Source of the DNA: Octopus vulgaris
Taxonomy: Eukaryota
Assembly (NCBI GenBank): GCA_951406725.2
Contig: OX597816.1
Span: 10,230,001-10,294,000 of the forward strand
DNA length: 64,000 nucleotides
Reading direction: 5' to 3'
Positions 5,018 to 32,131 of the stretch are shown in pieces (position 1 is the first letter of the stretch; each line of letters starts with the position of its first letter). The notes beneath the pieces were generated by a model that saw only the letters and a list, made by a program, of their open reading frames with translations, made no database searches and had not been told where the DNA came from. The translations under genes were made by a program, and so were the position numbers.

Positions 5018-7504
5018 CATCATCATCATCATCATCATCGTTTAACGTCCGTTTTCCGCGCTAGCACGGGTTGGACGGTTTGACCGGGGTCTGGGAAGCC
5101 AGGGGCCGCTCCAGGCTCCAGTCTGATTTGGCAGAGTTTCTACGGCTGGATGCCCTTCCTAACGCCAACCACTCCGTGAGTGGATTGGGTGCTTTTTACG
5201 TGCCACCTGCACAGGGGCCGGGGGGTCCGGCATTGGTCGCGATCGGTTCGGTTCGAGCTTTTAACGTGCCAGCGGCACGGGGGCAACTGGGTCCGGGGTA
5301 CTTTGAATGGGTAGGGGGTATGTGGAATTGCTGCAGAAAGCAGCCCGGGTCTTTGCAGTCACAGCATATCTCCAGAGATCTCGGTCTTTCGCCATTGCCT
5401 CAGTGAGGCCCAATGCTCTGAGGTCATGCTTGACTACCTCATCCCATGTCTTCCAGGGTCTACCTCTCCCCCTGATACCTTCAACTGTTTGGGAGTGGCA
5501 CTTCTTCACACATCTCTCTTCATCCATCCGCAGCACATGACCATACCATCGCAAGCGTCGCTCTTGCACACCACATCTGATGCTTCTTATATCCAGCATT
5601 TCTCTTAGGATGCTTACACTCTGTCTTGCGTGCACACTGACACTACACATCCAGCGGATCATGCTAGCTTCATTTCTTTCAAGTCTACGCATGTCCTCTG
5701 CAGTCACTGCCCATGTTTCATTACCGTGAAGCATGGCAGTTCGCACACATGCATCATACAATCTACCTTTCGCTCTGAGGGAGAGACCTTTTGTTGCCAG
5801 TAGGGGTAGGAGCTTTCTGAACTTTGCCCAGGCTATTCGTATTCTAGTGGTGATACTCTCTGTGCATCCACCTCCGCTACTAACTTGGTCACCCAGGTAG
5901 CGGAAACTATCAACTACTTCTAGTTTTTCTCCCTGGAGTGTGATGGAATCTGTTTTCTGAGTGTCTGTTGTGTCTATTGTCCCTGTGCATCTGCCGCACA
6001 TGAAAGCTATCTTATCTGTTAATTTCCCTTTAATGTTGCTGCATCTCTTATGTGTCCATAACTTACATTGGGTGCATCTTATGGAGTTTCTACCTGTACC
6101 TTTCCTACAGATTGAGCAGGGCCACCTACCCGAGGGGGTGTGTGTTGAGTACCTCTTGCTGCTTACTAATACTTTGGTCTTTGCTACATTTATTCTAAGG
6201 CCCTTTTGATTCCAACCCTTGCTTCCACACCCGAAATTTCTCTTCTAGTTCCGGTAGTGATTCTGCTATGAGAGCTAGGTCATCGGCATAGAGGAGCTCC
6301 CAGGGGCATCCCGTTTTGAATTCCTCTGTTATTGCCTGAAGGACTATGATGAATAAAAGGGGACTGAGGGCTGAGCCCTGGTGCACACCTACTTCTACCC
6401 GGAATTCTTCACTATATTCGTTGCCAATCCTAACCTTGCTGACAGCCTCTCTGTATAGAGCCTGTACAGCCCTTATTAGCCATTCTTCAATCTCCAGTTT
6501 CCGCATCGACCACCAGATGAGGGAACGGGGAACCCTGTCAAAGGCTTTCTCCAAGTCTACAAAAGCTATGTAGAGGGGTTTATCTTTAGCTAGGTACTTC
6601 TCCTGCAGTTGTCGGACCAGGAATATAGCATCAGTGGTGCTTCTACCTGGTACAAAACCGAACTGCATTTCATCTAAACAAATTCTCTCCCTAATGAGAT
6701 GGGTTATGACCTTCTCTGAGACCTTCATCACCTGGTCCAACAGTTTGATACCTCTGTAGTTATTTCTATCTAGAGCATCACCCTTACCCTTGTAGCAGTT
6801 GACTATGGTGCTGCTGCACCAGTCATTGGGTATGACTCCATTGTGAACTACCTGGTTTACAATGCGGGTGACTATGGTATAGCCCACATAGCCAGCTGTT
6901 TTAAGCATCTCAGCAGTGATTCCTGATAGGCCAGGGGCTTTGCCTGGTTTCATATCCTTAATTGCCTTATCTACAAGGGAGCTGTCTATTCGGGTAGCTG
7001 GTCCCTCTACTGGGTCAACATTTGGCAGGCTCTCCTCCTCCCATTCATTCTCCTCATTCAGCAGTCTTTCATAATGGCTTCTCCAAGCCTCTTTCTTTTC
7101 ACTAGCAGTAAATGCAAGTGCCCCATCATCCATGCGGACACATTTCTCTCCTATAACATCACTATTTTCTCTGACACACTGTCTGGCAATCCGAAATACT
7201 TCAGCTCTTTGATCCTCACGTCGCTTGACATTGGCAAACTTCTTCTTTTCTGCTACGTCTTTGGCTATGTATACCTGCCGCCCAGCCTCCCTTTTGGCTA
7301 TCTGGTACAGTTCCCTGCTGCCCCCCATCCTTCCAGGCTTTCCAGGCCCGTCTCTTTTTCACAGATGGCTTTATCTACTGCACTATTCCACCACCACGTA
7401 ATTCTAGGTCTGGAAGGGACTTTGTACCATCCACAGACTCGGTCTGTGGCACTCAGCAAGCTGTCCCGTAGGAATTCCCAGCTACCTTCTATGTCTGACG
7501 TCTG
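5018..7504 (-). mobile_element. RTE-clade non-LTR retrotransposon (LINE), 5'-truncated and frameshifted; RT domain plus 3' UTR ending in a (GAT)n tail
   Basis: ORF 6195..7328 has RT motifs NYRGIKLL, QFGFVPGRSTTDAIF, FVDLEKAFDRV, GVHQGSALSPLLF, YADD. ORF 5261..6001 has the RTE C-terminus (FRYLG, RRLRWYGHVLRM, RGRGRPWKTW). The sequence runs directly into the 3' UTR and the (CAT)n tract at 5018-5039. Confidence 0.95.
6195..7328 (-). pseudogene. RTE reverse transcriptase domain (disrupted ORF2 fragment)
   Basis: 377-aa ORF with canonical RT motifs including YADD; no endonuclease domain; frame lost near 6200 and resumed in ORF 5261..6001. Confidence 0.92.
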
Positions 7505-16258: not shown

Positions 16259-17931
16259 CTACATAAATACAGAGGTATAGAGTGTTAGGTGTGATGTACA
16301 GAATTGAATACTGAGAAAAAAAAAATCATCAGAATTTTGGAAAGAAATCCTTTTATTTCTTCATTATAATTAGCACTTTATTTCCTCTCTAGAACTTGTC
16401 AAATAGAATGTTGTGAATCTACAAACAGCTTGATTCATTTATATAAAACATGTATGTTGTGGGTTTTGTTTAGAAGAGAATATTGTTTTTTTTTCTTCTT
16501 TTTTTTAGTGTGGTTCCAAGACAATGGAGATGGATAGATAGAAATATAGGCAGGTTATCTGAGTTCAAATTCTGCCAAGGTTAACTTTGCCTTTCATCCT
16601 TTCAGGGTCGATAAATAAAGTACCAGTTACGCACTGGGGTCATTGTAACCGACTTTATCCCTTTGTCTGTCCTTGTTTGTTCCCTCTATGTTTAGCCCCT
16701 TGTGGGCAATAAAGAAATAAGAAACTATGAAGAAACTCATCATGTATGCGTGGTGTGATTATTTGAGTCTGTTTAGGCTGATAGATAGATGGACAGATAG
16801 AACGCACTTCTTTTGTATATTTTTTCTTTGGCGACGATTGGTGTCTTATATCTGGCCAAAATATTCTATTTGTTTCATGTTCAAAGTGGCCAGGTCTGGC
16901 CTCTCAAACCAACCCTACAATGTCATTCTAAAAATTAAAAGTTTCCTCATCAAAATCTCAAATTTAGAAAATAATACAGGGTTAATTCGAAACAATGTGA
17001 ATAAATAGCGGAGTGTGTCTGTGTGGTAAGAAGCTTGCTTCCCAACTACATGGGTGCAGGTTCAGTTCCACTGCGTGACCCATTGAGCAAGTGTCTTCTA
17101 CACTAACCCTGGGCCAATCGAAGCCTTGTGAGTGGTAGACGGAAATTGTATATATATATATGTATGTATTTATTTATTTATATGTGTGTGTCCTTTTGAC
17201 TGTGTTTCTCCTACCACCATCGCTTGACAACCAATTTTGGTGTGGTTATGTCTCCGTAACATAGCAGTTTGGCAAAAGAGACCGATAGAATGAGTACCAG
17301 GCTTAAAAAAGGAAGTGCTTGGCTTGATTCATATGAGTAAAACTTCTTGAAGGCGCTACTCCAGGATGGCTGCTGTCTAATAACCAAAACAAGTAAAAGG
17401 TAGAAGATATGTTTGTAGGTGTGTAGTTAGGCTTCAAAGAAAATAAGACCTGAGGTCAATTTCTTTGACTAAAACTCTTTAAGGTGATGCTCCAGCATGG
17501 CCACAGTCAGATGAGTAAAACAATACAAAAATTAATTACTTTTGATAGGTTAGTGGGAATGACAAAGAGTTAAATATCTTATTTTTTGACTGAGTTCTAC
17601 TGGGAGTCTAGGTAACCTTGTAGGTAAAGGTGTAGATAACCAGCAGCAAAGAACATACTGGAGCTTCTGGCCAGGGTTCAATCCTGTCCTGAGTACAACC
17701 AGATGGGTTTTTCACTTACTTTTTGATTCTACATCTGTACAAAAATAAAATTATATAATAATAAATGTAGAAGTTGCTGTATGGTAAGAATCTTGCTTCC
17801 CAACCACATGGTTCTGGGTTCAGTCCCACTGCTTGGCACCTCAGACAAGTCTTTTACTGTAGGCTCAGACTGGCCAAAGCCTTGTGAGTGGATTTGGTAG
17901 ACAGAAACTGAAAGAAGCCTGTTGTGTGTTA

Positions 17932-17961
<30 letters not shown>

Positions 17962-17962
<1 letters not shown>

Positions 17963-18278
17963 AATGAAAGAATGGAGTCAAACGACGATTTAACAAAATT
18001 CCTTTATTCTTGACATATATTTTAAAGAAACACTCATTATCACTATGGACTCCATGTGGGCAGTCATCTAAAAGTTTTTGTTCATCATGATGCTGACATA
18101 AGTTCCTTGTCTTTCCTGATGAGAAGGCAGCATAATGCACCCTTTATTCCTTCGGAATTAAGAATATGCAGTCTTCGAAACATATGTCGAGAATAAAGAC
18201 CGTGTTTTCTGACGTGAATTTGCTACCCGGGTATCGGTTAACCGAATTGTCCATACTAGGATAATTCATTCACCTACT

Positions 18279-18281
<3 letters not shown>
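17962..18281. mobile_element. Penelope-like element pLTR remnant inserted in the (TA)n of a SINE
   Basis: Flanked by (TA)n on both sides; carries the hammerhead plus AATAAA and an inverted partial copy (18001-18023). Confidence 0.65.
18109..18200 (+). ncRNA. Type I hammerhead ribozyme motif, Penelope-like-element type
   Basis: CTGATGA 18116-18122; stem II GAAGGC/GTCTTC extended by GCATA/TATGC; GAAA 18177-18180; palindromic stem III ACATATGT; GTC cleavage triplet ending at 18188; stem I TTTC/GAGA or GTCTTT/AAAGAC; AATAAA at 18192-18197. Confidence 0.82.
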
Positions 18282-18361
<80 letters not shown>

Positions 18362-19904
18362 CGCAAACACTGTCAAACGTCATTGATGTGTTTGCATCCT
18401 CATAATGTAGTGGTTTGGAAAAGAGACTGATAGAATAAGAACCAAGCTTAAAAAAGAAGTGCAGGGGTCAATTCATTCAACAAAAATTCATGGTGTCCCA
18501 GCATGGCCAGTCTAACGATAGATAAAGATAAAATATATAGCCCTTCATAATTTCAAGAAGGGATTGAAACCCTCAACCTTCATACAAAATACTAAGATAT
18601 ACTTTACCAACATCAATGCCCATACAGCCACCAAAGCAGCTCTTATTTCAAGCCTAAAAATGAAGTAATTAAATCTATTTTTATTTATTGGACGATATTA
18701 TAGATTTAAGTATCTCTTCTGTGACAGAAGTTAATGGGGGGACCCGGTAGGCTCATGAGTAAAGGTGTGTGTGTGTGTAGATGAATAGTGTGAGAGGAGC
18801 TTGTTCAGGTTTCAAGACAGATCAGGATGTAGGTAAGATTTTTTTTTTTTTTTTTTTCATCAAGGATATTAAATAAAAAAAAAAAAAATTCTTAACAGTA
18901 GTTACAGATAGAGATTGAAACCTCTATCTTCATACAAGACTATTAAGTAAATTACCAACACATTTACCCATTAGGCCATCAAGGCAACAACTGAAAAGCA
19001 GTTTGAAAATGAGATATTTAAATCTATTTTCATTCTTGATTTGATGCTGTGATGACTTATCTTATTTTCCACAGAAATTAATGGGGTACCCAATGGACTT
19101 GTAAGGGACACGGATAATGATACAGTGTGATAGGACATCCTGCATAATCTGGTACTGAGTTAAAGACAGATCAGGGTGAGTAAGATTTTTCATCTAAATT
19201 TTTTTTTTTATCAACAGTTTTAAAAAAGAAAAACTTTAAACAGTAGTTCTAAGTAGAGATTGAAACCTCTATCATCTTGCAATGTTATTGATGTTAAATT
19301 ACCAACACCTTTATCCAGGGGACCATCTCAGCAGCAACAAGGGTCAGCTTAAGAGTGGTATATTTGAATCTATTCTCGGATTTATCTCATTTTTCACTGA
19401 ACTGAGAAGTGAGAGACCCAATAAATTAGTGGGTTAATGGAATTGTGAAGCAGAATAACAGCTTAGAGGGAAGATTCTGTCCATGGTTCAATACTGGGCA
19501 GAGTGGAAATGAAAATTGTATGCCTTCCTTTTTTTTTATGTGTAGATAAATTTTCTTTTTTTTTTTCTATGTCTATATACTCTTTACTCTTTTCTTGTTT
19601 CAGTCATTTGACTGCGGTCATGCTGGAGCACCACCTTTAATCGAGCAACTCAACCCCGGGACTTATTCTTTTGTAAGCCCAGTACTTATTCTATCGGTCT
19701 CTTTTGCCGAACCGCTAAGTAATATATATATTTTTTTTAATGCTAAACAAGCATGTTCATAGGACAAGTTGAAACCTCTTCTCATCTATCATGATTACTT
19801 ATAGGGCATTTACCCACACTACCATCAATGCTGCATCTGAAATCCATTTAAAAGCAGGGTATTTAAACCTATTTTCATTATTCATCTCACTTTTGACAGA
19901 TGCC

Positions 19905-20132
19905 TTAACCCTTTAGCATTCAAATTACTCTGTCAAATGTAAAACCTGTTTAATTACATTGTTTTAAATTAATTGTGCAGCCTCTTGTAACTCTGAGATT
20001 TTGATGATGACCCTGTTAATTTTTAGAAGGACTTTGTAGGGTAGGTATGAGAGGTCAGAGCTGGCTGGTTTGAGAATGAAACAGGAAAACAATTTTGGTC
20101 TGGTATGGCCGGTTTAAACACTAAAGGGTTAA
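19905..20132. mobile_element. TTAA-flanked piggyBac-type MITE (copies 55776-56001, 59141-59365 inverted, partial about 16840-17005)
   Basis: TTAA-CCCTTTAG...CTAAAGGG-TTAA termini, about 225 bp, several related copies. Confidence 0.85.
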
Positions 20133-20280
20133 AGGAACACCCAGTAGGCTAGTGGTTAAAGCTGTGCACAGACAAAGAACTGTAAGACATCCTGACGAAG
20201 GTTCAAAACTAATTAAGATGAAAACACTTTTTTATCTTTTTTTTTTTTCTGTCATATCCAGAAAAATAAAAAAAATATTC

Positions 20281-22890
20281 TTAACATGCTGACTGCCCAA
20301 CTACGAAGGCAATCTACACAATTTTGCCAGGTAGGAGCATACTCGTAGAGGTCTATTTTATTGTAACGTGCTTAAAATGAACTGGAGCCTGGAACTAACA
20401 TTGTGAGTGTGTTGTGGAAACACTAGAGATACGACTTAACTCGTATCATGGCATCTGCCAGGAAATATATTTGGTAAAACATCTATATATCTATCAGGTA
20501 TAAGAAAAAATATATTTCCTTTATCATTTGTTGCAGTTTTTCACATTTGGGTTGTAATAGCATATAAAATTTTAATTCCTCCAAATTGAAATACATTATA
20601 ACATGAAAAAATGATCGTAAAGTGAAAAAAATGAATGTAAAGAAAATACAGAAAGATTACTGAAAAATATTTAGTTATTGAAGCTTACAAGTGGAACCAA
20701 TTTTTATTCTTTTTCTAACAAATTTGGAATAAAACAGGTTTATTCAAAAAATTGTAGACAGAATGTCAAATTATTCTGCCTGGGATGCCTTGAAACATTT
20801 TTCTACGCACGAAGCTGGTTCCTCTGGGCATGCAGCACAAGTGTACCTAGTTTATTTATGAAGTTTCTTTCCTGTACACACCCTGAATTGTTTGGTTGGC
20901 CTTTGTTTCTTTTCCGTAGCTGGAATTGCTTCCAAGTAGTGGAAATCTTCTACTGCTGGAACTGGAGTTTCTTTTCGTACGAAAGGTTCACCAAGCAAAT
21001 GCAGCCCTACATTATCTCTAAACTTTACAAGTTTCATTTGAGTGTTTTCTACTTGGCAATACACCTTGTGGGCATTATGGATGAGAATTCCAAAGATATG
21101 TAGACCAATTTTCTTGTACCAACGGAGTGTTTTCCAAGGACAAGAATAATTTGGAAGGAGGTGAGCTGACAGAAATGTTAGCACGCCGGGCGAAAGGCTT
21201 AGTGGTATTTTGTCTGCCGCTACGTTCTGAGTTCAAATTCTGCCGAGGTCGACTTTGCTTTTCATCCTTTTGGGGTCGATTAAATAAATACCAGTTACGC
21301 ACTGGGGTCGATTAAATAAATACCAGTTACGCACTGGGGTCGATTAAATAAATACCAGTTACGCACTGGGGTCGATATAATCAACTTAATCCTTTTGTCT
21401 GTCCTAGTTTGTCCTCTCTGCATTTAGCCGCTTGTGGGTAGTAAAGAAATAGGTATTTCGTCTGCCGTTATATTCTGAGTTCAAATTCCACCGAGGTTGA
21501 CTTTACCTTTCATCCTTTCGGGGTCGATAAATTAAGTACCAGTTATGTACTTGGGTCGATATAATCGACTTAATCCCTTTGTCTGTCCTTGTTTGTCCCC
21601 TCTATGTTTAGCCCCTTGTGGGCACTAAAGAGATAAGAATAATAGAAAAGCATTTGATCTGATCTATCTACTCCTGACATACTGTTGTTATAATCTTTTA
21701 CAATACTGGGCTTCTTTGATTTTTTTTCCATTACGATTTATCAGATCTACCATTTCCACTTGGTGCTTATTACTAATTGCCAATACGTCTCTCTTCTCTT
21801 TCCGTTTTCACACAACTACTTCGTCTGATCTTATCCATTCTGACTCTCCTTTCTTCAACTTTTTTTTTTACCAAATCCTTGGGGTTGTCTTTTCGGGTAA
21901 ACCTCAGAGTTCCACATTTTTATTTGAGTAGATCACTGTGACACTGCTTTTGTCAAAGAAACAGAGTTGTAGTAATCATCTGTGTACAGAATATAACCTT
22001 TATCAAGGAACTCATCCATCAGACTAAGCACCACTTGACCTAAATGCCCCAAGATGCCAGTTTGAGCATCTGGCTTTCCTGAATAGATCAGAATTTTTCG
22101 AACAATACCACTTGATACACGAAGTTCATACAACTTTACACCATACTTATGTCTCTTGTTCTTTAAGTACTGGCAAAATATTAATCAGCCACACCAAAGT
22201 ACCATGGACTCATCAATACAAACTTCTCTCTCTGGGATGTATCATCATCATCATCGTTTAACGTCTGCTTTCCATGCTAGCATGGGTTGGACAGTTCAAC
22301 TGGAATCTGGGAAGCCCGAAGGCTGCACCAGGCCAGTCAAATCTGGCAGAGTTTCTACTGCATCTACTGCAATGCCAACCACTCCGTGAGTGTAGTGGGT
22401 GCTTTTTATGTGCCACCGACACAGGTGTCAGACGAGGCTGGCGAACGGCCATGCTCGGATGGTGTTTTTTTGTGCCACCGACACAGGTGCCAGACAAGGC
22501 TGATTATTGAAATATCTAAGAATGGGATTAATTTTATGCAAACGATCACCATTATCTTCGTTGTTTGAAAAGTGAAGAAATTGGAGCAGCAACTGAAAAT
22601 GATTCTGACTCATTACGGAAGGAAAAAGAGATTTGTATAAAATGTTAGAGGACCAATAACTTTCTACAGATGGTTTGGGCCATCATGTACCCATTTGTAA
22701 CATCAGGCCAAAGAAACACTTCCTTTCCGTCACATTTGTTCTGTGCCACTCTTTGAACTGGGATGATCTTCGTACAAGACCTTGCTGTTGATCTAACATC
22801 TGCATAGCATAAGCATTGGTTTCCTCAACTAATACAGTCCAAAATTCATCTGTCAGAAATTGGTCGATAACTTCTCCTATAGAGTTTAGT
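20281..22890 (-). mobile_element. Decayed piggyBac (PGBD4-like) DNA transposon, interrupted by a SINE and an RTE 3' UTR
   Basis: Fragments LVEETNAYA..W..T...E.KCFFGL, MSQNHFQLLLQFLHFSNN..DRLHKI.P, KYGVKLYEL..LYTDDYYNSVSL, KTLRWYKKIGLH and a Cys-rich C-terminus; TTAA at 20281-20284 marks one end. The other end was not located. Confidence 0.9.
21155..21636 (+). mobile_element. tRNA-headed SINE family B with Meta-domain-like core, often tandem dimeric (others about 4724-4949+, 12608-13015+, 27433-27809+, 58200-58940+, 59800-60128+, 7530-7720-, 8160-8335-, 10128-10342-, 10500-10708-)
   Basis: gagctggcagaaacgttagc (A box), gagttcaaattcc (B box), core tttgcctttcatcctttcggggtcgataaattaagtaccag resembling the MetaSINE/Sauria-type conserved domain. 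This copy is flanked by aagaataat; the 27433-27809 copy has a 16-bp TSD ggtattggacaccatg. Confidence 0.85.
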
Positions 22891-23270
22891 GTCCAATGAA
22901 GGAAAGGTACACCCTGGCATAGGCCACGGGTTATGGTCTCACTTAGCTTGCTGGGTCTTCTCACACACTGCATATTTCCAAAAGTCTTGGTCACTAGTCA
23001 TTGCCTTGGTGAGGCCTAATGATATATATATATCTGTATTTTGAGTAATTCATGACAAGGTACGCCTTTGATAAAACAGTTGTCCCTGCAAAGTAAATTA
23101 AATAAAATTTATATATATGTATATAATATATAACTAATAAAAAGGGTGGCTTATTAGCAATTAGAACTTAAAGGCAAAATTAATGAAGATAATTATCTTA
23201 TCTTAGCATTTTCATCACCTATATGTATGTATGTATTTATGCATGCATGTATGTATATATATATATATAT

Positions 23271-31170: not shown

Positions 31171-32131
31171 TAACCCTTTTGTTACTAACCTGGCTGAAAC
31201 TGACTCTGGCTATCAGTACAAATGTCTTGTTTTCATAAGTTCTGAATAAAATCACCCACCAAACCTTAGTCACAATTTATGTTACTAACCCTAGCTTAAT
31301 GATAACTAAGTTATTTTACTAAATTCTTTGTTATATTTAAAATTAATTGATAGAAACACAGAACATCTCAACAGAAATATGGTAAGAAAAGGGTTAAAAT
31401 ATATAATAGAGAAACAATTCTTAACCCTTTCGATACCAATTCAGCTGAAACCACCTCTGGCTCTGTAGTACAAATGTCTTGTTTTCATAAGTTCTGAATT
31501 AAAATCTTTCACCAAACCTTAGTCACAATTTATGTTCCTAACACTAGCTTAATGATAACTAAGTTATTTTACTAAATTCTTTGTTATATTTAAAATTAAT
31601 TGAAAGAAACACAGAGCATCTCAACAGAAATACAGTAACGAAAGGGTTAAAGCCACCATGATATTTTTAACCCTTTTGATACCAATCCAGCTGAAACCAC
31701 CTCTGGCTTTGTAGTACAAATGTCTTGTTTTCATTAAGTTTTGAATTAAAATCTTCCACCAAACCTTAGTCACAGTTTATGTTCCTAACACCAGCTTAAT
31801 GATAACTAAGTTATTTTACTAAATTCTTTGTTGTATTTAAAATTAATTGAAAGAAACATAGAGCATCTCAACAGAAATACAGTAACGAAAGGGTTAAAAT
31901 ATATAATAGAGAAACAATTCTTAACCTTTTTGATACCAACCTGGTTGAAATCACCTCTGGCTCTGTAGTACAAATGTCTTATTTTCATAAGTTTTGAATT
32001 AAAATCTTCCACTAATTTATGTTCCTAACACTAGCTTAATGATAACTAAGTTATTTTACTAAATTCTTTGTTATATTTAATTGAAAGAAACACAGAGCAT
32101 CTCAAAATAAATACAGTAACGAAAGGATTAA
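31171..32131. mobile_element. Cluster of four ~230-bp TTAA-type MITEs (31171-31397, 31421-31650, 31667-31897, 31921-32131)
   Basis: Each unit is (T)TAACCCTTT...AAAGGGTTAA (unit 4 degenerate) with a near-identical interior. Confidence 0.9.

What the first reader, a model, noticed from the sequence alone, without database searches (positions are those of the whole stretch)
17570..20280. Array of head-to-head tRNA-like Pol III cassette pairs with conserved control signals and variable interiors
Seen: after removing later insertions (SINE plus Penelope remnant 17768-18535, SINE piece about 19580-19730, MITE 19905-20132) the region is a ~340-bp repeat ordered P0-M1-P1-M2-P2-M3-P3-M4-P4. Plus cassettes (about 17600, 18738, 19083, 19412, 20135) have an A-box-like start (ggtaggctcatgagtaaagg; cagtaggctagtggttaaag), a B-box-like motif (agggttcaatcct, caggtttcaagac, tgagttaaagac, tggttcaatact, aggttcaaaact) and a T-run. 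Minus cassettes (about 18545-18640, 18895-18990, 19240-19337, 19750-19835) read tggctgtatggg/tggcctaatggg..GTTGGTAA (M1-M3)..GGTTTCAAT inside a T-arm-like hairpin (atagag-gtttcaat-ctctat); M2 and M3 end in their own T-runs. Each M/P pair diverges from a ~100-bp spacer with TATA-like tttaaatctattt and tatct.atttt motifs. A-to-B spacing exceeds that of a standard tRNA and the interiors differ strongly between copies. Established: A/B boxes plus oligo-T define type 2 Pol III genes. Inference: either a decayed cluster of intron-containing or long-arm tRNA genes, or an undescribed family of bidirectional Pol III small RNAs in which only promoter and terminator signals are conserved. It does not match any SINE family in this window.
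Basis: partly seen in the sequence, partly recalled or inferred. Interest (0 to 1): 0.8.

Follow-up and report, generated by a model that had tools for sequence, protein, structure and literature searches.

The report
Back-to-back tRNA-like small RNA genes, octopus
An octopus-like genome carries at least 28 clusters of back-to-back mini-genes with transfer-RNA-type promoters that score as neither tRNAs nor vault RNAs; stray promoterless copies show they were likely made into short RNAs in the germ line, the cluster here is a partly decayed copy, and their role is untested.

Summary
The array is real. All nine cassettes match one family model (E at most 1.5e-7; next hit in 64 kb 0.12), so plus and minus cassettes are one gene type in alternating orientation: upstream TATA-like motif, A box, variable interior, B box, T-run. 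The family occupies at least 28 loci on 15 contigs. Motif-to-A-box spacing is 47-50 nt in 74 of 83 motif-bearing genes while interiors diverge. Fourteen solo copies lack the upstream motif and end at or near the T-run, as do this genome's vault RNA copies, which points to past germ-line Pol III transcription; three derive from window cassette P0. They are not tRNAs (no anticodon arm) and not vault RNAs (those lie elsewhere). Shared RNA structure is weak. Public contigs gave no direct RNA evidence either way. The window copy is partly decayed. Best reading: an undescribed tRNA-derived Pol III small-RNA family working like snaR or 4.5SI; a selfish-array reading remains open. The scan had not noted this family on other DNA.

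The parts
17564..17712 (+). P0 gene: upstream motif from 17564, start about 17599, A box from 17613, B box 17675-17684, T-run 17708-17712. The only motif-bearing P0 found; parent type of three solo copies; its A-box position 10 differs from all three solos.
17770..17960 (+). Head and body of a common tRNA-headed SINE; also present at the C17 block copy
17962..18280 (.).
   Evidence: absent from the C17 copy
18351..18529 (+). SINE 3' part; left edge of the duplicated block, shared with the C21, C17 and C26 copies
18530..18678 (-). M1 gene: motif from 18678, A box from 18630, B box about 18572-18560, four-T run 18533-18530
18700..18845 (+). P1 gene: motif from 18700, A box from 18748, B box about 18808-18818, long T-run from 18839; 12-nt interior deletion relative to other block copies
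18875..19027 (-). M2 gene: exact motif from 19027, A box from 18978, B box in a hairpin loop, T-run 18888-18875; looks intact. Its C26 relatives gave six solo copies.
19057..19190 (+). P2 gene, damaged here: deletions in the upstream motif and just after the A box, and a changed B-box base
19229..19373 (-). M3 gene: motif from 19373, A box from 19325, B box 19267-19257, T-run 19233-19229
19380..19537 (+). P3 gene; upstream motif partly deleted here
19560..19722 (-). Inserted SINE tail piece, absent from the C21, C9 and C17 copies
19753..19872 (-). M4 gene: motif from 19872, A box from 19824, B box about 19778-19768; no T-run on its own strand before the SINE piece
19905..20132 (.). High-copy short insertion (MITE-like) in the upstream region of P4
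20133..20233 (+). P4 gene: A box from 20145, B box 20201-20211, T-run from 20228; no upstream motif recognised in any of 7 anchored P4-type copies

Best explanation
This is one, partly decayed, copy of a multi-locus family of likely tRNA-derived, non-tRNA genes laid out in alternating orientation, which RNA polymerase III likely transcribes from back-to-back promoters into U-tailed RNAs of about 95-125 nt that would act as lineage-specific small RNAs of the snaR or 4.5SI kind. Shown: the family, its layout, the fixed promoter spacing, the solo copies and the lesions in this array. Inferred from established Pol III biology: TFIIIC binds the A and B boxes, TBP/TFIIIB sits on the upstream motif about 30 nt before the start, and each spacer fires two genes outward, with neighbouring T-runs facing each other. 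Inferred from solo copies: at least five sequence types were transcribed in the germ line and reverse-transcribed by retroelement enzymes. Inferred from flanks: arrays grew by inverted and tandem duplication of a roughly 170-bp unit and spread as 1-3 kb duplications with variable ends, often at microsatellites. Least supported: that the RNAs serve the host, for instance as loosely folded tRNA-like protein decoys. I put about 0.85 on 'transcribed Pol III gene family' and about 0.5 on the full statement including a host role for the RNA.
For: 117 family hits in 18 array loci and 10 further array loci among 16 loci read (the search behind it had 113 candidates, 40 scored). Motif-to-A-box distance is 47-50 nt in 74 of 83 motif-bearing genes and in 23 of 26 motif-bearing representatives, whereas A-to-B ranges 49-70 and B-to-T-run 11-46. 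Mean majority base fraction over 27 representatives: A region 0.78, B box 0.78, motif 0.64, interiors 0.43-0.53. The motif is absent upstream of 0 of 41 ordinary tRNA calls, i.e. none has it. Ten solo copies mapped end -17 to +11 nt from the parent T-run; five start 14-17 nt before the A box (32-35 nt after the motif start), three are shorter at the 5' end, and 9 of 10 run straight into a SINE tail or head. Four more solos start at model positions 31-43, past the motif. Positive control: 7 of 10 vault RNA loci read are solo copies with SINE tails or heads of the same sort. Traces of tRNA geometry: acceptor-stem register 116 of 189 pairs against 47-92 in nine other registers (partner swap mean 107.6, P 0.028); D stem 85 of 108 (Watson-Crick 62, shuffle P 0.03); shifted B-box hairpin 67 of 108 (swap P 0.004). 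TATA-like boxes at -31/-24 with A and B boxes are described for 4.5SI and 4.5SH genes (PMC10137851, abstract).
Against: No consensus fold on the 27-row alignment (0 pairs); only 2 of 27 RNAs fold with z below -2; D-stem pairing with G-U allowed is not above shuffle (P 0.27). The P values ignore relatedness among representatives. Boxes served as anchors and the family was found through them, so their conservation is partly built in; 25 of 117 hits were dropped for failing the anchors and 9 of 92 had no motif. Two solo alignments extend with gaps to position 19 of the 22-nt motif. Many block copies decay freely, and this one has lesions in P1, P2, P3, M4 and P4, and P0 differs from all three solos at several sites including A-box position 10. 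Rapid turnover and wide scattering fit a selfish array as well. No conservation outside near-identical genomes could be examined.
Confidence: 0.5

Rival explanations
1. Selfish or neutral arrays: the units are real Pol III genes, but they persist because dense, convergent Pol III transcription promotes breaks and inverted duplication, so only transcribable units keep multiplying; the RNA is a by-product.
For: Fold-back duplications of one type within arrays at C26 and C21; at least 28 loci with variable boundaries; promoter geometry kept while no consensus fold is found; many decayed copies.
Against: Weak but present pairing in acceptor, D-stem and B-hairpin registers; about 19 clusters of divergent interiors, several kept in the same order in distant blocks; no fixed element ends and no dedicated enzyme gene among 12 nearby ORFs scanned, 4 of which were LINE-type fragments.
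Confidence: 0.27
2. Chromatin role: the arrays are kept as dense TFIIIC/Pol III sites acting as boundaries, as tRNA genes can (recalled, not from a call); the transcript matters little.
For: Signals are conserved more than the RNA body; clustered head-to-head layout.
Against: Arrays are scattered with arbitrary repeat flanks and no gene context was seen. No chromatin data were available.
Confidence: 0.12
3. A decayed cluster of ordinary intron-bearing or long-arm tRNA genes.
For: A and B boxes and an acceptor-stem register in tRNA geometry; one weak family-model hit, on a tRNA-Arg(TCT) locus, among 24 tRNA and vault loci (E 7e-4).
Against: ARAGORN finds no gene in the window and none on a cassette in 17 array loci at default score; no Rfam tRNA hit at E up to 10 or 5; anticodon-stem pairing 45-74 of 135 over 32 registers with no peak at the expected one (59), U33 in 5 of 27, canonical T stem 76 of 135 (my sum of its rows); the family-specific motif is kept at fixed distance.
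Confidence: 0.06
4. An expanded set of vault RNA or Y RNA genes.
For: Size, A and B boxes and a variable centre resemble vault RNA genes (PMC7058938, passages); the major vault protein gene is present.
Against: The Rfam vault model has 20 hits over its gathering score elsewhere in the genome and none at a known array; those loci do not match the family profile. No vault or Y hit on the cassettes; the Y RNA model gave no hit in the genome (only 51 candidates scored, so weak).
Confidence: 0.03

Closest known systems
snaR family of great apes (PMC3045588; passages read)
   Same: Pol III RNAs of about 117 nt from an intragenic promoter, lineage-restricted, about 30 genes mostly in tandem arrays, spread by segmental duplication of a larger unit, testis and brain expression
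   Different: snaR derives from Alu/7SL and sits singly in larger repeats; here the genes are tRNA-like, packed every roughly 170 bp in alternating orientation with back-to-back promoters, over at least 28 loci and about 19 sequence clusters. Expression here is only inferred.
Rodent 4.5SI and 4.5SH RNA genes (PMC10137851, abstract and outline; PMC3440375, search listing only)
   Same: About 100-nt lineage-restricted Pol III RNAs; 4.5SI is tRNA-derived; A and B boxes plus a TATA-like box at -31/-24
   Different: No sequence relation was tested; those are single RNA species, whereas this is a diversified family in inverted arrays
Vault RNA genes (PMC7058938; passages; Rfam RF00006)
   Same: Type 2 internal promoter with upstream elements, variable centre, small clusters
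   Different: The genome's vault RNA-like genes are a separate family at C8; the cassettes do not score with the model
tRNA-derived SINEs and small-RNA retrocopies formed by template switching (PMC4476161, abstract and outline)
   Same: The solo copies look like small-RNA retrocopies fused to retroelement ends
   Different: The arrays carry upstream promoters and terminators and spread as DNA blocks; only 14 solos were seen, with no tail of their own
Helenus/Ajax non-autonomous LTR elements with tRNA-like LTRs (PMC10886601; passages)
   Same: tRNA-like A and B boxes inside a dispersed repeat; molluscan examples (bivalves)
   Different: No LTR pair and no fixed ends seen here; the units alternate in orientation and have their own T-runs

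Membership tests
Type 2 Pol III gene with upstream TATA-like element | Internal A box and B box | tested here: met
   92 of 117 hits anchored on both; B boxes often carry an extra T or a changed base
Type 2 Pol III gene with upstream TATA-like element | T-run terminator after the B box | tested here: met
   11-46 nt after the B-box G in 27 representatives; lost in window M4
Type 2 Pol III gene with upstream TATA-like element | AT-rich element about 30 nt before the start, at fixed distance | tested here: met
   47-50 nt from motif start to A box in 74 of 83; five solo 5' ends 32-35 nt after motif start
Type 2 Pol III gene with upstream TATA-like element | Pol III occupancy and a discrete transcript today | not testable with these tools
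   Only assembled contigs of unlabelled runs were available
tRNA gene (with or without intron) | Cloverleaf scored by ARAGORN or Rfam RF00005 | tested here: not met
tRNA gene (with or without intron) | Anticodon stem and U33 | tested here: not met
   59 of 135 at the expected register, T in 5 of 27
tRNA gene (with or without intron) | Acceptor stem and D stem | tested here: inconclusive
   116 of 189 and 85 of 108; right register, far from complete
Vault RNA | Match to Rfam RF00006 | tested here: not met
   separate loci carry the match
Vault RNA | Association with vault particle or TEP1 | not testable with these tools
   MVP gene present; binding needs experiment
Y RNA | Match to Rfam RF00019 | tested here: not met
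   (the genome search scored only 51 candidates)
tRNA-derived SINE | High-copy dispersed retrocopies with own tail and no upstream promoter | tested here: not met
   Most copies are promoter-bearing array members; 14 solos seen; counts are lower bounds
Discrete transposon carrying the array | Shared fixed ends across copies | tested here: inconclusive
   Several copies of the window block end at the same microsatellites, others elsewhere; T2-type blocks have variable ends
snaR / 4.5SI (membership) | Sequence descent from those mammalian RNAs | not tested
   Comparison is by gene design only; membership is not claimed

The most novel reading that the evidence does not exclude
Octopuses have evolved a large, previously unannotated repertoire of Pol III small RNAs: dozens of arrays of back-to-back tRNA-like genes whose interiors have diversified into about 19 or more sequence types under a shared dedicated promoter, expressed in the germ line and used by the host.
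Probability: 0.35. Interest if true: 0.85.

Novelty: new variant of a known kind. Interest (0 to 1): 0.62.

Why it matters
Few Pol III genes beyond tRNA, 5S, U6, 7SL, 7SK, vault and Y RNAs are known outside mammals (recalled). A family of well over 100 genes with one promoter design and many interiors is missed by tRNA finders and Rfam, and is directly testable with one size-selected RNA-seq or Pol III ChIP experiment. If the RNAs serve the host, they add a new class to the cephalopod small-RNA repertoire. If the arrays are selfish, they show Pol III genes multiplying as inverted DNA arrays and seeding retrocopies, a possible step towards new SINEs. The solo-copy test is a general way to read past transcription and RNA ends from a genome alone.

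Tried and rejected
Expression: no RNA holder listed (3 holders of 24 runs, none on record as RNA). Contigs of runs X1-X4 and X1, X13, X4, X15 gave a few low-depth pieces that run across promoters or flanks, so they are DNA or long transcripts; this is no evidence for or against the small RNAs. Cross-species conservation: the two DNA runs under other organism labels are about 99% identical to the window where covered, so uninformative, and the genome search has no relatives. A genome-wide search with the family model was not available, so family size is a lower bound from DNA and pattern searches. A test of divergence by region among copies of the window block was not carried out; whether boxes are better kept than interiors within that block is open. 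Relaxed ARAGORN gave noise (42 and 150 calls). Rfam microRNA hits on arrays are below gathering score and reflect inverted repeats or microsatellites. Ancestral tRNA: only 10 isotype classes were sampled; tRNA-Arg and tRNA-Thr scored highest, weakly; undecided. Viral or element origin: 12 of 27 long ORFs near arrays were scanned; 4 were LINE-type fragments, 8 had no Pfam hit. Literature: ten full-text searches listed no description of this family; the library lacks most subscription papers, no supplements were read, and repeat databases could not be searched, so a repeat-library entry cannot be excluded.
Full report
Observation. The window is G000:C3:10230001-10294000 of a 2.8-Gb genome that earlier scan notes call octopus; I did not test the species. 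The nine cassettes are present as described. ARAGORN finds no tRNA in the window and Rfam gives no tRNA, vault or Y RNA hit in 16500-21500 at E up to 10. Reading both strands shows that plus and minus cassettes share the same 22-nt AT-rich upstream motif. The array is therefore an alternating inverted repeat of one unit of about 170 bp: half a spacer with the motif, a gene, and a T-run. A sequence-only model of 27 representatives recovers all nine at E at most 1.5e-7, with the next hit in 64 kb at 0.12 (partly circular).

A genome-wide family. The block M1 to P4 recurs in the same order at C21, C9 (twice), C17, C6, C24 and four sites on C26, at about 70-88% identity. More distant arrays of the same design lie at C2, C10, C21 and C26. 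A profile search of the fetched loci gave 117 hits in 18 array loci. One more DNA search, with a C2 type, had 113 candidates of which 40 were scored; of 16 loci read were new arrays, 2 known arrays and 4 solo copies. The minimum is 28 array loci on 15 contigs. The 92 anchored genes fall into 19 clusters at 75% identity (25 hits failed the anchors and were left out).

What is conserved. The distance from motif start to A box is 47-50 nt in 74 of 83 motif-bearing genes and in 23 of 26 motif-bearing representatives, although the letters between differ; A-to-B spans 49-70 nt and B-to-terminator 11-46 nt. Majority base fraction is 0.78 in the A region and B box, 0.64 in the motif and 0.43-0.53 in interiors. 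The boxes were the anchors, so part of this is built in; the spacing was not an anchor but the profile favours it. None of 41 ordinary tRNA calls has the motif upstream. RNA structure is only weakly shared: the acceptor-stem register peaks exactly where a tRNA has it (116 of 189; other registers 47-92) but partner swaps average 107.6 (P 0.028); D stem 85 of 108 (P 0.27, or 0.03 for Watson-Crick pairs); a shifted hairpin around the B box 67 of 108 (P 0.004). These P values ignore relatedness. There is no anticodon arm, RNAalifold predicts no pair, and 2 of 27 RNAs fold with z below -2. So the family looks tRNA-derived but is not a set of tRNAs, and what is kept best is the ability to be transcribed.

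Evidence of transcription. Fourteen solo copies from five types were found: P0 three, M2 six, P2 one, a C2 type three and a C21 type one. For the ten mapped, 3' ends fall -17 to +11 nt from the parent T-run, five 5' ends fall 14-17 nt before the A box, three are shorter, and two extend with gaps to position 19 of the motif; 9 of 10 run into a SINE tail or head. The four begin past the motif. This is the form of small-RNA retrocopies made by template switching (PMC4476161, abstract only). As a control, 7 of 10 loci of the genome's vault RNA read are solos of the same form, and tRNA solos keep leader and trailer (e.g. L137 against L136), so the ends mark primary transcripts and say nothing about later processing. 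The inferred start puts the motif core about 30 nt upstream, as for the TATA-like boxes of 4.5SI and 4.5SH genes (PMC10137851, abstract). Window P0 is the only motif-bearing P0 found (searches score only top candidates). It differs from all three solos at several sites, including A-box position 10, so its ancestor was transcribed but it may now be weakened. Public contigs gave no usable evidence on present expression.

State of this array. Against the C21, C9 and C17 copies, P2 has lost part of its motif and has A- and B-box damage, P3 has lost part of its motif, P1 has a 12-nt interior deletion, M4 has no T-run on its strand, and P4 has an insertion upstream. M1, M2 and M3 look intact. The right end is cut at 20284, and a piggyBac-type transposase remnant lies at 22686-22997 (PF13843); that the two belong together is inferred. 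P0 is absent from the other block copies. The most uniform arrays, likely the active ones, are at C26 30.3-35.3 Mb, C21 22.5 Mb and C2.

Spread. Four block copies begin at the microsatellite inside the left SINE and four end at one microsatellite on the right, while others end elsewhere; T2-type blocks share 0.4-1.9 kb with variable ends. This fits DNA duplication or transduction with flexible ends rather than one discrete element. Earlier scan notes that the local SINE tail is Penelope-derived suggest which enzyme made the solos; I did not test that.

Known families. Not tRNA and not vault RNA: the Rfam vault model has 20 hits over its gathering score at other places, with apparent gene pairs at C8, and the family model finds only one weak hit, on a tRNA-Arg locus, among 24 vault and tRNA loci. 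In design it works like snaR (arrays, segmental spread; PMC3045588, passages) and 4.5SI (tRNA-derived, A, B and TATA boxes), without being a member of either. Ten literature searches listed no description; subscription papers, supplements and repeat libraries were out of reach. Other papers seen: PMC7058938 and PMC10886601, passages; PMC3440375, listing only.

Verdict. A real, apparently undescribed, multi-locus Pol III gene family with an unusual back-to-back inverted layout and genomic evidence of past transcription. A host role for the RNAs is the weakest step (0.5 overall); selfish arrays 0.27, chromatin boundary 0.12, dead tRNAs 0.06, vault or Y RNA 0.03. Interest 0.62.

Noticed in passing
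G000:C8:17845131-17845639 and C8:17900033-17900539 (L133, L129); also C8:49747988-49748082 (L125): Apparent octopus vault RNA genes, in pairs, over the Rfam gathering score, with many promoterless copies elsewhere. My searches listed no paper describing octopus vault RNA.
   Followed up: partly
G000:C26:12730826-12733085 (L092-L094): Exons of a major vault protein gene (PF01505)
   Followed up: no
window 20285-23000: piggyBac-type transposase remnants on the minus strand (PF13843 at 22686-22997), interrupted by other repeats; likely cut the right end of the array
   Followed up: partly
L033:1300-1850: A P0 solo copy has SINE-type tails in inverted orientation on both sides, the layout that earlier notes link to Penelope-type insertion
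   Followed up: no
L022, L023, L115 (C26 30.8 and 31.3 Mb; C21 22.5 Mb): Fold-back duplications put near-identical genes in inverted pairs, forming long perfect inverted repeats that a read-through transcript would fold into double-stranded RNA
   Followed up: no
L117, L019, L017, L118, right flank of the block: The shared right flank ends at a microsatellite after a stretch that by eye resembles a decayed hammerhead-type end on the opposite strand; not tested
   Followed up: no
window 5261-7358: LINE-type reverse transcriptase remnant on the minus strand in two frames (identified by eye)
   Followed up: no
window 31171-32131: Tandem repeat of a 253-bp unit, 3.9 copies
   Followed up: no
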